Source: a virus
Taxonomy: Duplodnaviria; Caudoviricetes
IMG/VR virus record: IMGVR_UViG_3300035670_000238
Span: 1 to 58,981 of that record
Reading direction: 5' to 3' (one strand)
Length of the DNA stretch: 58,981 nt
Part shown: positions 54,146-56,145 of the stretch, piece after piece
Layout: each line of letters starts with the position of its first letter
How positions within the stretch are numbered: the first letter of the stretch is position 1
Notes under the pieces: generated by a model
Databases searched by the model: none
Seen by the model: only the letters and a program-made list of their open reading frames with translations
What the model was told of the DNA's origin: nothing
Program-made: the position numbers and the translations under genes

Positions 54146-54286
54146 ATGGCTGCCGTTTATCCGGTACAAGCGCCTTTCGATACGAGTACCTCGTATTCAG
54201 GCGCGTTTATCCCGACCCTGTGGTCGGGCAAGCTGCTCGCCAAGTTCTACCAGAACACTATGTTGTCTGAAATCGCCAACACGGAT
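54146..54286 (+). CDS. Major capsid protein exon 1 (47 codons)
   Basis: AGGAG RBS; FIPTLWSGKLL.KFY.......IANTD, which continues as YEGE in exon 2. Confidence 0.9.
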
Positions 54287-55284
54287 TAACCTCATGGTCC
54301 GTGTAAAACTCGGTGAATTGCGGGAAGGCTGAAACGTCAATCCGCAGCCAAGCCCCGAAAGGGGAAGGTTCAGAGACTAGGAATTTAGGTGTGATCTCCG
54401 GGCTTGATGCCCTGAATGGAGGTAGAGATGGAGGCAGTAAATCGAGGTGCCCTTGTTGGTATGTTGTTAGGTGATGGCTATGTCAACACCACCAATGGCA
54501 AGCACGAGTTATCCGTACTGCATAGCATCGCGCAGAAGGACTATTGTGAACACAAAGCTGCTAGGGTCAAGCAGATTTTAGGCGGCAAGTTCAACGTACG
54601 AGAGTACGCAAATGGTCCGGGTGGGCGTTACCGCGCTGTCAAGTTCGTGTCCAGTCATCCGTACTGGGCAAATTTGAAATCGTGGGTTTACCCAAATGGT
54701 CGCAAGACCTATACGCGGCGATTGCTTGAGATGCTAACCCCCGAAGGGATAGCGTTTTGGTACATGGATGACGGTAGTGCTCGTCGCAACACCAACAAAG
54801 ATGGGTGGGTCACTTCGGTTGCTACTGACATAGCTACTATGTGTAGTGAGTCTGAGTGCTTGACCATTCGTGACTACTTCTTAGAAGTGCATCAGATCGA
54901 ATGGAATATACGCTGTAAAAAGGGTTCGCCCTCTGACAAGGCGTTTTACATTCAGTGCAATACGGCTCAATCGCGCAGGTTCGCCGAACTTGTTCGCCCC
55001 TACATCATTCCGTCCATGCTGTATAAGCTGGTCCATGTAGCAAACCTAGATTCCCACGAGTGCCGAGCACCTGTTGGAGCTTGTGACACTTGCGGTGCTA
55101 CGATATACGAACACCGACGCACTGGGCTTTGCTCAGCGTGTTACAGTAAGCGGTACTACCGCACTGTTCGTAGATTTGTAGAGGGCCGCAAACCACGAGT
55201 TGCAGGTGATGAGATAGTCCGACCTAACGCGAATAACGAAGCGTTAGAAGTGGTGGATAAAGAGCCGCCACGATAACAGCCCCG
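54287..55284 (+). mobile_element. Group I self-splicing intron (998 nt) in the major capsid gene
   Basis: Exon ends in U, intron ends in G; P1 ACACGGAU/GUCCGUGU with U.G pair; P10 CCUCAUG/UAUGAGG; P (GAAUUGCGGGAA), Q (AAUCCGCAGC), R (GUUCAGAGACUA), S (GAGAUAGUCC). Confidence 0.95.
54428..55276 (+). CDS. Intron-encoded LAGLIDADG homing endonuclease with C-terminal zinc finger
   Basis: LVGMLLGDGY and GIAFWYMDDGS motifs; GGAGG RBS before 54428; CDTC...CSAC. Confidence 0.92.
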   Translation: MEAVNRGALVGMLLGDGYVNTTNGKHELSVLHSIAQKDYCEHKAARVKQILGGKFNVREYANGPGGRYRAVKFVSSHPYWANLKSWVYPNGRKTYTRRLLEMLTPEGIAFWYMDDGSARRNTNKDGWVTSVATDIATMCSESECLTIRDYFLEVHQIEWNIRCKKGSPSDKAFYIQCNTAQSRRFAELVRPYIIPSMLYKLVHVANLDSHECRAPVGACDTCGATIYEHRRTGLCSACYSKRYYRTVRRFVEGRKPRVAGDEIVRPNANNEALEVVDKEPPR

Positions 55285-56145
55285 TATGAGGGCGAATTGA
55301 AGAACCAAGGCGACACCATCCGCATCCGTCTCGCCCCGACGATCAGCATTTCTGATTACACGGCTGGTATGAACCTGAACTACGAGGTTCCGACCCCGAT
55401 TTATCAGGACATGCAAGTCAACAAGGGCAAGTATTTCGGTGTTCAGGTCAACGATGTTCTGGCGTATCAGTCGGACATGAACCTCATGAACATGTTCACC
55501 GAGGACGCGGCCAAGCAGTTGAAGATCCAGATCGAGAACGAGGTCTTCTTCAACTCCTTCGTCACCGAAGGCCCGGATGCTGCGAACAAGGGTGCGTCGG
55601 CTGGTGCGATCTCCGCTGCCTATAACCTCGGTACGGACACCACTCCGATCGATCAGGCAACGCCCGAGAACGTCCTGAAGGCAATCCTGCGTATGTCGAC
55701 GGTTCTGGACGAGCAGAACGTGCCGGAAGACGGCCGTTGGCTGGTTCTGAGCCCGTTTGACCGCCATCTCCTGATGCAGTCGAACCTTGCGCAAGCCTAC
55801 TTCACCGGTGACTCGTCTAGCACGATCCGTACTGGCAAGATCGGTATGATCGACCGCTTCACGGTCTACGTGTCGAACCTGCTCCCGCGTGGCGCTGCTG
55901 GTAAGGCGTTGGTGGCTGGTTTGTCTGACACCGCGACGGGTGCGGCGGTTGCGAGCGCTAAGGCACGTCGTGTGATGATGGCCGGTACCAAGGCTGCGGT
56001 TTCGTTTGCGATGACCGTAAACAAGACTGAGCCCCTGCGTAACCAGACCGACTTCGGCGATATCGTCCGGGGTCTGGCGGTGTATGGTCGCAAGACTGTC
56101 AAGCCGCAGGCTCTGGTTCTGGCTCAAGTTGGTTCGGCGACCTGA
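55285..56145 (+). CDS. Major capsid protein exon 2 (spliced product 333 aa)
   Basis: YEGELKNQGDTIRI, LDEQNVPEDGRW, GKIG.IDRF.VY.SN.LP, R....FGD.VRGL.VYG.K.V.P. Confidence 0.92.
   Translation, partial: YEGELKNQGDTIRIRLAPTISISDYTAGMNLNYEVPTPIYQDMQVNKGKYFGVQVNDVLAYQSDMNLMNMFTEDAAKQLKIQIENEVFFNSFVTEGPDAANKGASAGAISAAYNLGTDTTPIDQATPENVLKAILRMSTVLDEQNVPEDGRWLVLSPFDRHLLMQSNLAQAYFTGDSSSTIRTGKIGMIDRFTVYVSNLLPRGAAGKALVAGLSDTATGAAVASAKARRVMMAGTKAAVSFAMTVNKTEPLRNQTDFGDIVRGLAVYGRKTVKPQALVLAQVGSAT

What the first reader, a model, noticed from the sequence alone, without database searches (positions are those of the whole stretch)
54380..55284. LAGLIDADG ORF is threaded through the ribozyme core, with a zinc finger encoded inside P8
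Seen: the ORF starts in the loop of a P7.1-like stem (GGAAUUUAGGU 54380-54390 pairs with ACCUAGAUUCC 55044-55054). It does not stop there. It reads through P3' (CCGAG 55063-55067, partner CUCGG 54309-54313), P8 (CACCUG 55068-55073 / CAGGUG 55203-55208), P7' (UAGUC 55215-55219) and P9, ending 8 nt before the terminal G. The ~129-nt P8 loop encodes a CDTC...CSAC finger and a basic helix. Inference: two separate loop insertions have fused into one protein (extensive core creep), so translating the nuclease must unfold the catalytic core. This could couple homing to capsid output.
Basis: partly seen in the sequence, partly recalled or inferred. Interest (0 to 1): 0.7.

Follow-up and report, generated by a model that had tools for sequence, protein, structure and literature searches.

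The report
Capsid-gene intron with threaded nuclease gene
A self-splicing intron in a phage capsid gene carries a homing-nuclease gene that runs straight through the ribozyme's own helices and has picked up a zinc-finger module inside one of them, an extreme but understandable case of a known phenomenon.

Summary
Window 54287-55284 is a 998-nt group I intron in a phage major capsid gene. 79 of 80 related capsid loci lack it and join exactly at this point. A metatranscriptome contig joins 54286 to 55285 exactly.

88.6% of cells pair, against 31-45% when partners are slid. The P3' placement from the Rfam model is rejected.

The LAGLIDADG ORF (54428/54416-55276) starts in the P7.1 loop. It reads through P7.1', P3', P8, P7', P9 and P9.1.

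The ~129-nt P8 loop encodes a conserved Cys4 finger with a coding signature. The same finger occurs in HNH and GIY-YIG nucleases.

Two corrections:
- Threading predates the finger. 15 of 16 finger-less relatives already stop inside the 3' core.
- The last 24 codons look like by-product. Relatives enter P8' in all three phases (10:7:7), the tail shows no coding signal, and it is predicted disordered.

This is "core creep" plus domain accretion: a new variant of a known kind. Coupling of homing to capsid output is untested.

The parts
54146..54286 (+). Exon 1 of the major capsid gene (47 codons, ends ...ANTD). The last base is the U of the 5' splice site.
   Evidence: PHROG major head protein. 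In 79 of 80 related loci exon 1 directly abuts exon 2.
54287..55284 (+). Group I intron, 998 nt. It begins with UAA in frame with exon 1 and ends with the terminal G.
   Evidence: An RNA-run contig skips exactly 54287-55284.
54281..54302 (+). P1: 54281-86 pairs with 54297-54302, with a U-G pair at the splice site.
   Evidence: Read from the sequence. 84% of cells paired; 6 of 6 pairs covary.
54290..54295 (+). P10 5' strand. It pairs with 55286-55291 in exon 2.
   Evidence: 6 perfect pairs in the window. The helix is weak across the family: one pair 80.6% and the other five 58.3% paired.
54309..54313 (+). P3 5' strand (partner 55063-55067).
   Evidence: 97.4% paired; 4 of 5 pairs change on both sides.
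54319..54368 (+). P4 (54319-24/54341-46), P5 (54327-29/54336-38), P6 (54348-49/54367-68) and P6a (54353-56/54361-64).
   Evidence: RF00028 partial match, 38.7 bits. P4/P5 94% paired, P6 100%; of the four P6a pairs, three are 99.1% paired and the fourth 79.5%.
54373..54379 (+). P7 5' strand (54373 and 54375-79; A54374 is bulged). Partner 55215-55220.
   Evidence: 100% paired. Pair 54373:55220 is GC in 29 rows and AU in 10.
54380..54390 (+). P7.1 5' strand (partner 55044-55054). The nuclease ORF sits in its loop.
   Evidence: 11 of 11 pairs covary. ORF-less relatives have a 29-32-nt hairpin at this position.
54394..54423 (+). Two-tier hairpin that pairs the Shine-Dalgarno GGAGG (54418-22) with 54395-99. 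The inner stem is 54400-03/54409-12.
   Evidence: MFE -13.7 kcal/mol, z -1.9. SD at least 75% paired in 21 of 34 relatives folded. Inner stem 85.8% paired, outer stem 61.4%, on A2.
54428..55276 (+). LAGLIDADG homing-endonuclease ORF: 282 aa from ATG 54428, or 286 aa from the first ATG at 54416. Stop TAA at 55274-76.
55044..55054 (+). P7.1 3' strand, inside the ORF.
55055..55062 (+). Junction CACGAGUG. It is conserved in ORF-less relatives too, and in the ORF it is read as the invariant His-Glu.
55063..55067 (+). P3 3' strand, inside the ORF.
55068..55208 (+). P8: stem 55068-73/55203-08. The 129-nt loop (55074-55202) encodes the Cys4 finger and a basic helix (about residues 220-262).
   Evidence: 93.6% paired; 6 of 6 pairs covary. 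P8 span is bimodal in relatives, 14-53 nt or 93-244 nt, over the 39 introns with a measurable span. The loop shows coding periodicity. The finger is modelled confidently.
55209..55220 (+). J8/7 (55209-14) and the P7 3' strand (55215-20), inside the ORF.
55224..55271 (+). P9 (55224-30/55241-47) and P9.1 (55250-56/55265-71), inside the ORF. Together with P8', J8/7 and P7' (55203-20) they are translated as the last 24 residues.
   Evidence: 94.8% and 88.5% paired. The tail shows no codon periodicity and has pLDDT below 50.
55285..56145 (+). Exon 2 of the major capsid gene.
   Evidence: PHROG major head protein, E 6.6e-42.

Best explanation
Window 54287-55284 is a mobile group I intron in the major capsid gene of a ~59-kb phage. 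It belongs to a large family of capsid-gene introns.

The ribozyme has P1, P3-P9, P9.1 and P10, plus a native P7.1 hairpin between P7 and P3'. A monomeric, two-motif LAGLIDADG homing-endonuclease gene sits in the P7.1 loop. Its reading frame was extended ('core creep') through the P7.1 3' strand, the CACGAG junction, P3' and P8.

In one clade, the tolerant P8 loop then received an in-frame segment of about 100-170 nt (244 nt in one member, L098) that encodes a Cys4 zinc finger and a basic helix. This module also occurs in HNH and GIY-YIG nucleases and in DNA-binding regulators, so it is most likely an extra DNA-binding module for the homing site.

In the window's lineage the frame enters P8' in the phase that has no early stop. 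P8', J8/7, P7', P9 and P9.1 are therefore translated as a 24-residue, probably functionless tail that ends at the UAA of the conserved GAUAAC.

The intron splices at exactly these borders in nature. A conserved hairpin pairs the nuclease's Shine-Dalgarno sequence, which would keep ribosomes from often invading the 3' half of the core.

Shown: borders, helices, conservation, coding signatures, the exact exon join in RNA.
Inferred: order of events, DNA-binding role of the finger, translational repression.
For: Borders:
- 79 of 80 capsid loci are intron-less at exactly D47|Y; the 80th lacks exon 1.
- P1 has a U-G pair, and the window has a 6-bp P10.
- In RNA run X13 a contig joins 54286|55285 with 0 mismatches over 187 + 79 nt. 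DNA run X4 of the same study carries the whole stretch with the intron in one contig. No joint was seen in X4 or X11.

Structure: 79 pairs are 88.6% paired against 31-45% when slid, with 0 of 500 shuffles as high.

Native P7.1 and short P8: seen in ORF-less relatives.

Nuclease:
- Pfam LAGLIDADG_2, 93.4 bits.
- D118, D119 and G120 are invariant; D20 is at least 90% conserved.
- AF2 model pLDDT 88.7. Best PDB match is I-SceI, E 2e-12.

Finger:
- The four Cys are conserved.
- 119 of the 120 homologues listed have it.
- Per-codon-position differences in the P8 loop are 0.47/0.42/0.67, like the core at 0.40/0.32/0.65.
- A finger profile finds 58 representative proteins at E up to 0.001. I scanned 16 of them in Pfam. 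One carries HNH (P0138), two carry GIY-YIG (P0134, P0152), one ArgR-N (P0132) and one HTH_31 (P0143).

Tail is a by-product:
- The phase at P8' is 10:7:7 among 24 finger-bearing introns.
- Tail differences are 0.29/0.27/0.31, with no periodicity (n=10).
- pLDDT is below 50 for residues 263-286.
- The same RNA motifs (CACGAG, GAUAAAGAG, GAUAAC) occur in ORF-less introns.

Order of events: 15 of 16 short-P8 ORFs already stop inside the 3' core. The long-P8 introns form a derived clade.

SD hairpin.
Against: - Rfam gives no match at its gathering score. The sub-threshold match covers only the 5' half and places P3' at 54396-54403.
- The exon-joined RNA contig could in principle come from an intron-less strain. 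Such strains are common, contigs cannot prove absence in DNA, and an RNA library may contain DNA (notes).
- The tree was rooted at the midpoint only. One short-P8 intron (L204) lies inside the finger clade, and the branch placing it has 93/54 support. One gain plus one loss, or two gains, are both possible.
- The outer stem of the SD hairpin pairs in only 61.4% of cells on the MAFFT alignment. The window's hairpin has z = -1.9 only. The SD was at least 75% paired in 21 of 34 relatives folded, and 6 of 40 had no start located by my rule.
- No Pfam family names the finger; the best is DUF7685, E 0.071, below its cut-off.
- Endonuclease activity, zinc binding and self-splicing in vitro were not and could not be tested.
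Confidence: 0.8

Rival explanations
1. The finger and basic helix encoded in P8, or the whole protein, act on RNA. They would form a maturase or autoregulator that binds its own intron, so that translation through the core and splicing are actively coupled, and capsid output with them.
For: LAGLIDADG proteins with maturase activity exist, including one bacterial case in Thermotoga (passage of review PMC3984707). Foldseek lists the bI3 maturase and I-AniI among the matches. The helix after the finger is very basic. The ORF necessarily competes with folding of P3', P8 and P7.
Against: ORF-less and finger-less relatives keep the same core, so the ribozyme does not need the finger. The finger's relatives sit next to DNA nuclease domains and DNA-binding domains (HNH, GIY-YIG, ArgR-N, HTH). 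Both LAGLIDADG acidic residues are conserved, as expected for an active DNA nuclease. There is no direct evidence of RNA binding.
Confidence: 0.1
2. The whole C-terminal extension, including the 24-residue tail through P7', P9 and P9.1, is a functional part of the nuclease. It would be kept under dual protein and RNA constraint in this lineage.
For: About a third of homologues keep the read-through form: 40 of 120 by my pattern, plus 4 more read by eye among the 'other' class. 21 of the 40 end in the DKEP-type motif. 6 of 24 introns share the same stop, 59 nt after the start of P7'.
Against: All three phases occur at P8' (10:7:7) within one clade. The tail shows no third-position excess (0.29/0.27/0.31). 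The conserved 'residues' coincide with RNA motifs that are also present in ORF-less introns. The tail is predicted disordered.
Confidence: 0.1
3. The element is a decaying, no longer mobile intron. The long ORF would be an annotation artefact of read-through in a dead gene.
For: Homing endonuclease genes commonly degenerate after fixation (general knowledge of the field). Review PMC3073962 warns that some reported overlaps are mis-called ORF ends.
Against: The ORF is intact. Its catalytic motifs are conserved, and it shows a strong third-position excess over 200 codons (0.40/0.32/0.65). 194 homologues were found at E up to 0.001. The intron is sporadic: none of the 79 scorable best-matching capsid loci has it, while capsid genes only 27-40% identical carry related introns at the same site. 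That pattern fits ongoing gain and loss.
Confidence: 0.05

Closest known systems
Phage T4 td intron with I-TevI, and the 'core creep' hypothesis (Edgell, Chalamcharla and Belfort 2011, PMC3073962; passages and Table 1 read)
   Same: A phage group I intron whose endonuclease ORF sits in a peripheral loop and runs into core helices. The ribosome-binding site is sequestered in a hairpin. The extension is predicted to vary in length and to be dispensable, and the relatives here meet both predictions. I-TevI also has a zinc finger.
   Different: The td overlap is 20 nt (P6a, P6.0, P7) and the enzyme is GIY-YIG in P6a. Here the enzyme is LAGLIDADG in P7.1. The ORF covers 233 nt from the P7.1 3' strand to the stop. 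It crosses seven paired strands or hairpins, and a whole protein module is encoded inside the P8 loop.
Synechococcus lividus LSU rDNA intron with a LAGLIDADG ORF (Table 1 of PMC3073962; primary paper PMC1995217 seen as a search listing only)
   Same: A bacterial group I intron whose LAGLIDADG ORF overlaps many core elements. The table lists 81 nt over P6/P7/P3/P8/P9.0/P9.
   Different: There the ORF is inserted in P8 and the host gene is rRNA. Here it is inserted in P7.1 and the host is a protein-coding phage capsid gene. No finger module is mentioned in the table.
Mycobacteriophage LittleE capsid-gene intron with a LAGLIDADG gene (Pope et al. 2013, PMC3706429; passages read)
   Same: A phage capsid gene interrupted by a group I intron that carries a LAGLIDADG-type nuclease. 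[quoted passage not shown]
   Different: That ORF is on the opposite strand, is 177 aa and I-CreI-like, and does not thread the ribozyme. No sequence comparison with it was made here.
I-SceI and I-WcaI (PDB 1r7m, 6x1j)
   Same: Best structural matches of the modelled nuclease core: E 2e-12, TM-score 0.70-0.72 on the target, about 207 aligned columns. Both are monomeric two-motif LAGLIDADG enzymes.
   Different: Identity is 21-23%. The alignment stops at about residue 207, so neither has the C-terminal finger.

Membership tests
Group I intron (Rfam RF00028) | Score at or above Rfam's gathering threshold (50 bits) | tested here: not met
   No match at gathering score. 38.7 bits over model positions 47-158 only. 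The ORF in P7.1 splits the core, so the model cannot span it.
Group I intron (Rfam RF00028) | 5' splice site after a U paired with G in P1; terminal G at the 3' end; P10 with exon 2 | tested here: met
   U54286 pairs with G54297. G55284 is the last intron base. P10 is 54290-95/55286-91. Borders are fixed by 79 intron-less loci.
Group I intron (Rfam RF00028) | Pseudoknotted core P3-P8 with P4-P6 and P7, supported by covariation | tested here: met
   P3 97.4%, P4/P5 94%, P6 100%, P7 100%, P8 93.6% paired. Controls give 31-45%.
Group I intron (Rfam RF00028) | Exact excision and exon ligation in RNA | tested here: met
   A contig of metatranscriptome run X13 skips exactly 998 nt, 54287-55284. DNA runs of the same study show no such joint. 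Caveat: these are contigs, and intron-less strains exist.
Group I intron (Rfam RF00028) | Self-splicing with guanosine in vitro | not testable with these tools
   Needs a bench assay.
Subgroup IA-type architecture (extra P7.1/P7.2 between P7 and P3'; definition as in review PMC3984707, passage, and recalled) | A helix between the P7 5' strand and P3' | tested here: met
   An 11-bp stem with 11 of 11 covarying pairs. It is a 29-32-nt hairpin in ORF-less relatives.
Subgroup IA-type architecture (extra P7.1/P7.2 between P7 and P3'; definition as in review PMC3984707, passage, and recalled) | A second helix, P7.2, and the other subgroup-specific features | tested here: inconclusive
   Only one stem closes the insertion. 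The inner SD hairpin might stand for P7.2. No subgroup classifier was run, so I do not assign a subgroup.
LAGLIDADG homing endonuclease (Pfam PF03161 LAGLIDADG_2) | Profile match above the curated cut-off | tested here: met
   93.4 bits against 25, residues 11-189. PHROG 11023, E 1e-20.
LAGLIDADG homing endonuclease (Pfam PF03161 LAGLIDADG_2) | Two LAGLIDADG motifs with their acidic residues (monomeric form) and the alpha-beta-beta-alpha-beta-beta-alpha fold | tested here: met
   Motifs lie around G19-D20 and D118-D119-G120, invariant or at least 90% conserved. The model matches I-SceI at E 2e-12.
LAGLIDADG homing endonuclease (Pfam PF03161 LAGLIDADG_2) | Site-specific cleavage of the intron-less allele | not testable with these tools
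   Needs a cleavage assay.
'Core creep' ORF extension (as defined in PMC3073962) | The extension into the core varies in length among relatives | tested here: met
   Among the 24 long-P8 introns, stops fall 8 or 5 nt before the start of P7', at it (0), or 38-71 nt after it, depending on phase. Short-P8 forms mostly stop 10 to 67 nt after the start of the CACGAG junction.
'Core creep' ORF extension (as defined in PMC3073962) | The extension is not essential for the protein | tested here: inconclusive
   Indirect support only: no codon periodicity, three phases, predicted disorder. The finger part, by contrast, does look functional.
Cys4 zinc finger | Four conserved metal ligands in a CxxC...CxxC arrangement | tested here: met
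   C223, C226, C239 and C242 are at least 90% conserved, and invariant in A3. Three of the 24 long-P8 introns (L004, L178, L179) have CxC in the first pair.
Cys4 zinc finger | Membership of a curated finger family | tested here: not met
   Best Pfam matches are DUF7685 (E 0.071), HypA and ZZ, all below their cut-offs. PDB sequence matches have E of 0.39 or worse.
Cys4 zinc finger | Zinc binding | not testable with these tools
   Needs metal analysis of the purified protein.

The most novel reading that the evidence does not exclude
The threading is used, not merely tolerated. Each ribosome that escapes the Shine-Dalgarno hairpin and translates the nuclease melts P3', P8 and P7 of that pre-mRNA, so nuclease synthesis and capsid mRNA maturation would be mutually exclusive on one molecule. 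The finger and basic helix made from the P8 loop would bind back to the intron or its homing site and set that balance. The result would be a built-in switch between selfish spread and virion yield in the phage's most highly expressed late gene.
Probability: 0.12. Interest if true: 0.7.

Novelty: new variant of a known kind. Interest (0 to 1): 0.5.

Why it matters
The overlap of endonuclease ORFs with ribozyme cores is known, and the 'core creep' model made predictions that had little comparative backing.

This family offers a natural series:
- ORF-less introns.
- Introns with an ORF in P7.1 that stops in P3', in P8 or at P7'.
- Introns with a finger added in the P8 loop.
- Three alternative C-terminal ends, set only by reading phase.

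The series separates RNA-imposed from protein-imposed conservation, residue by residue.

It also shows that a tolerant ribozyme loop can serve as the landing site for a new protein domain, so one stretch of RNA grows both as ribozyme periphery and as coding sequence.

The family is abundant in capsid genes of environmental phages and uses LAGLIDADG enzymes, which review PMC3984707 does not list among those most often found in phage introns. The finger module shared by LAGLIDADG, HNH and GIY-YIG nucleases has no curated family.

The system is small enough for direct tests of how translation and splicing compete on one RNA.

Tried and rejected
- Rfam at gathering score found nothing. The sub-threshold RF00028 alignment puts P3' at 54396-54403, right after P7. 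On A2 that pairing is 57.6% paired against 55.8% in shuffles (70 of 500 as high), so I rejected it. That stretch belongs to the SD hairpin instead.
- My first count of structure pairs used one bracket type for P3 and P7, which cross as a pseudoknot. The tool therefore paired them wrongly. I discarded its P3 and P7 rows and repeated the count.
- blastn of the intron against the phage collection: no match. tblastn there found 15 nuclease relatives covering only residues 1 to about 205, none with the extension.
- A word-based search with the finger alone found only two near-identical proteins. The HMMER profile search was needed.
- P0121 (695 aa, 8 stretches), the top hit of that search, is a repetitive Cys-rich protein without nuclease domains. 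I give it no weight.
- The promoter scan found no + strand promoter-like site inside the intron upstream of the ORF. This is a weak negative from a consensus scan.
- RNA run X18 and DNA run X11 gave only partial cover of the stretch, and I draw nothing from their gaps.
One paper reading failed on a too-short term and was not repeated.
- NAR 2026 paper PMC13619312 (passages) does not deal with this family.
- Three literature searches and one on LAGLIDADG plus zinc finger listed no paper describing this intron family or an ORF in P7.1 with a finger in P8. The library lacks most subscription journals, and supplements were closed.
Full report
**What is there.**
The window is a virus record of 58,981 bases, estimated 98% complete. 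At 54146 a major head protein gene begins (PHROG 267). It breaks off after 47 codons at a TAA and resumes at 55285.

Among the 80 best capsid relatives fetched from viral contigs, 79 have exon 1 directly followed by exon 2 at exactly ...ANTD|YEGE. The 80th lacks exon 1 because its contig ends. The insert is therefore 54287-55284, 998 nt. It follows a U and ends in G. The last six exon bases pair with 54297-54302, with a U-G pair at the splice site (P1). Positions 54290-95 pair with the first bases of exon 2 (P10).

Rfam finds nothing at its gathering score. In E-value mode RF00028 matches 54306-54403 at 38.7 bits, covering model positions 47-158, which span P3 to P7.

**Evidence of splicing.**
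In a freshwater metatranscriptome run (X13), one contig joins 54286 to 55285. It skips exactly 998 nt and has no mismatch over 187 and 79 nt on the two sides. A DNA run of the same study (X4) holds the whole stretch, intron included, in one 7-kb contig. Neither X4 nor X11 shows the joint.

The limits of this evidence: these are contigs, intron-less strains exist, and RNA libraries can contain DNA. I take it as good but not conclusive evidence that the borders are used in nature.

Searches with the nuclease protein and a profile of it brought in related loci. Anchoring on the conserved P7 and junction motifs gave 40 distinct related introns including the window. I aligned 39 of them; L208 was dropped because its P7' anchor was not found.

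With P7 written as a pseudoknot, 79 pairs are 88.6% paired. With partners slid by 1-3 columns the figure is 31.5-44.5%. No shuffle out of 500 reached any of the five measures.

| Helix | Cells paired | Covariation |
|---|---|---|
| P3 | 97.4% | 4 of 5 pairs change on both sides |
| P7.1 | 94.8% / 87.7% | 11 of 11 pairs |
| P8 | 93.6% | 6 of 6 pairs |
| P7 | 100% | invariant, except 54373:55220 (GC 29 rows, AU 10) |
| P9 | 94.8% | 6 of 7 pairs |
| P9.1 | 88.5% | 7 of 7 pairs |
| P1 | 84% | 6 of 6 pairs |
| P10 | 58-81% | weak |

The alternative P3' implied by the Rfam alignment (54396-54403) is no better than chance: 57.6% paired against 55.8% in shuffles, with 70 of 500 as high. Comparison with relatives overturns it, because the general model cannot bridge a 650-nt insertion between P7 and P3'.

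**P7.1 is native.**
A pattern for the P4'-P6-P7 core found more than 80 further viral loci. Many are ORF-less, with only 60-77 nt between P7 and P7'.

Seven were written out in full. Each shows P7, then a 29-32-nt hairpin, the CACGAGYG junction, P3', an 11-17-nt P8 hairpin, J8/7, P7', P9, and P9.1 with a GAUAAAGAG loop (GACAAAGAA in one, AAUUAAAAAAAUC in another), then GAUAAC or a close variant.

The stem is thus a true P7.1. The conserved 'codons' of the ORF's 3' part are ribozyme sequence: His-Glu is CACGAG, DKEP is the P9.1 loop, and the TAA stop lies in GAUAAC.

**The ORF.**
The frame is open from ATG 54416 to TAA 55274-76. Most homologues start at the position of ATG 54428, which lies 5 nt after GGAGG.

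It is a two-motif LAGLIDADG enzyme. Pfam LAGLIDADG_2 scores 93.4 bits, and the acidic residues of both motifs are conserved. The AlphaFold model has mean pLDDT 88.7. Its best PDB matches are I-SceI and I-WcaI over about 207 columns.

Phage-database relatives stop at about residue 205. In the large protein collection, 194 homologues exist at E up to 0.001, and most of the 120 listed are 250-296 aa long. 119 of those 120 carry the Cys4 motif.

**The finger is a protein domain.**
It lies entirely in the P8 loop (55074-55202). The four Cys and the Tyr after the last one are at least 90% conserved. The region is modelled with confidence, with a helix at residues 240-255.

Pairwise differences by codon position in the P8 loop are 0.47/0.42/0.67, close to the nuclease core at 0.40/0.32/0.65. 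This third-position excess is the signature of selection on protein.

A profile of the finger finds 58 representative proteins at E up to 0.001, many with several tandem copies. I scanned 16 of them in Pfam:
- one carries an HNH domain (P0138);
- two carry GIY-YIG (P0134, P0152);
- one carries an ArgR DNA-binding domain (P0132);
- one carries HTH_31 (P0143).

No Pfam or PDB entry matches the finger significantly. I infer a modular DNA-binding finger shared among homing-nuclease classes.

**The tail is not a protein domain.**
Among 24 distinct finger-bearing introns the frame enters P8' in three phases:
- Phase 1, 10 introns: read on through P7'. Six stop at the same UAA, 59 nt after the start of P7'; the others stop 38, 38, 41 and 71 nt after it.
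- Phase 2, 7 introns: stop at a UGA in P8'/J8/7.
- Phase 0, 7 introns: stop at the UAG of P7' itself.

The 120 listed homologues split similarly. 40 match the read-through pattern, with 4 more seen by eye in the 'other' class. 23 end in VMI or VMR. About 52 end earlier.

Tail codon positions differ equally, 0.29/0.27/0.31 (n=10). Residues 263-286 have pLDDT below 50. The stretch P7.1'-J-P3'-P8a is intermediate at 0.34/0.24/0.36, as expected under double constraint.

**Order of events.**
P8 spans are bimodal over the 39 introns with a measurable span: 14-26 nt in 14 introns, 53 nt in one (L218), and 93-244 nt in 24.

In 15 of 16 short-P8 introns the longest ORF already ends beyond the start of the CACGAG junction: in P3', in P8 or a few bases after P7'. 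The exception is L228.

In a tree of the nuclease cores the 24 long-P8 rows fall in one clade of 25, with support 96/92. One short-P8 row (L204) lies inside it on a weakly supported branch. The short-P8 rows are basal under midpoint rooting.

The simplest reading has four steps:
1. The nuclease gene was inserted in the P7.1 loop.
2. The frame was extended into the core.
3. The finger was added in frame in the only tolerant place along that path, the P8 loop.
4. The C-terminus was then set by phase.

Rooting and the position of L204 leave one gain plus one loss, or two gains, both open.

**Spread.**
35 of 39 related loci are flanked by homologues of this capsid protein, at 27-88% identity. Most sit at the same site. 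Some sit 20-57 residues further on, for example L005, L221, L227, L231 and L240.

The element is absent from all 79 scorable loci among the 80 best-matching capsid relatives. Sporadic presence across very divergent hosts fits active homing.

**Control of translation.**
Between the P7.1 5' strand and the start codon, 54394-54423 folds into a two-tier hairpin that pairs the whole GGAGG. Its energy is -13.7 kcal/mol, it makes up 84% of the ensemble, and z is -1.9.

In MFE folds of 34 relatives the SD motif is at least 75% paired in 21; in 6 of 40 my rule located no start. Complementary changes are visible, for example CUCC/GGAG, CCUC/GAGG and GUUC/GAAC. On the MAFFT alignment the inner stem is 85.8% paired and the outer stem only 61.4%.

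No + strand promoter-like site lies inside the intron. I infer that the nuclease is made from the capsid transcript or the excised intron, at a low rate.

By analogy with I-TevI, ribosomes on the ORF would disrupt P3', P8 and P7. The review reports a splicing defect when the td hairpin is mutated; I read passages of PMC3073962 but not the primary paper. This step is inference.

**Comparison with what is known.**
ORF-core overlap and its name come from PMC3073962. Its Table 1 lists overlaps from 0 to 81 nt, the largest for a LAGLIDADG ORF in P8 of a cyanobacterial rRNA intron.

Capsid-gene introns with LAGLIDADG genes are known in mycobacteriophage LittleE. There the protein's C-terminus resembles that of HNH proteins.

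Review PMC3984707 says phage introns most often carry GIY-YIG, HNH, PD-(D/E)xK or EDxHD enzymes.

The searches listed no description of this family, of an ORF in P7.1, or of a finger encoded in P8. The library is incomplete, and supplements were closed.

**Verdict.**
Its functional coupling idea is untested. The case is an extreme, well-documented variant of core creep with domain accretion inside a ribozyme loop.

Noticed in passing
L095:1085-2574 and L207:2236-3431: In two related loci the capsid exon-2 match is itself interrupted by about 900 nt (L095) or about 575 nt (L207). This suggests a second insertion, possibly another intron, in the same capsid gene, near the site that L005 uses.
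   Followed up: no
L265, L279, L294, L312, L321: Five viral loci carry two copies of the P4'-P6-P7 core pattern within 0.3-3 kb. These phages hold several introns of this class close together.
   Followed up: no
L326, L303, L317, L329, L333, L321, L270: These are ORF-less introns with the same core, the same CACGAG junction and mostly the same P9.1 loop as the window's intron. They are candidates for the ancestral, empty form, and useful for a structure-guided model of the class.
   Followed up: partly
P0125, P0129, P0132, P0134, P0138, P0141, P0152: The Cys4 finger with the G-L-C-x-x-C-Y signature occurs as 2-4 tandem copies (by eye in the printed sequences; P0134 was not printed) next to HNH, GIY-YIG, ArgR-N or sigma-like domains. 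No Pfam family covers it above threshold. It looks like an undescribed modular DNA-binding repeat.
   Followed up: partly
window 54287-54289: The intron's first three bases are a TAA in frame with exon 1, so ribosomes on unspliced RNA stop at the splice site. L001, L003 and L004 also have a stop as the first intron codon; in L002 it is the third.
   Followed up: partly
window 54346-54382 (table 7): DNA runs X4 and X11 hold short contigs that share only the P6-P7 core and then diverge. One continues like an ORF-less intron, another like the L227/L231 type. Several members of the intron class therefore coexist in the same samples.
   Followed up: no
window, whole record: Near-identical sequence is held by runs labelled subsurface, drinking-water, freshwater and lake-water metagenomes from at least six studies (shares 0.39-1.00). 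Only four runs were laid, so this says little about habitat.
   Followed up: no
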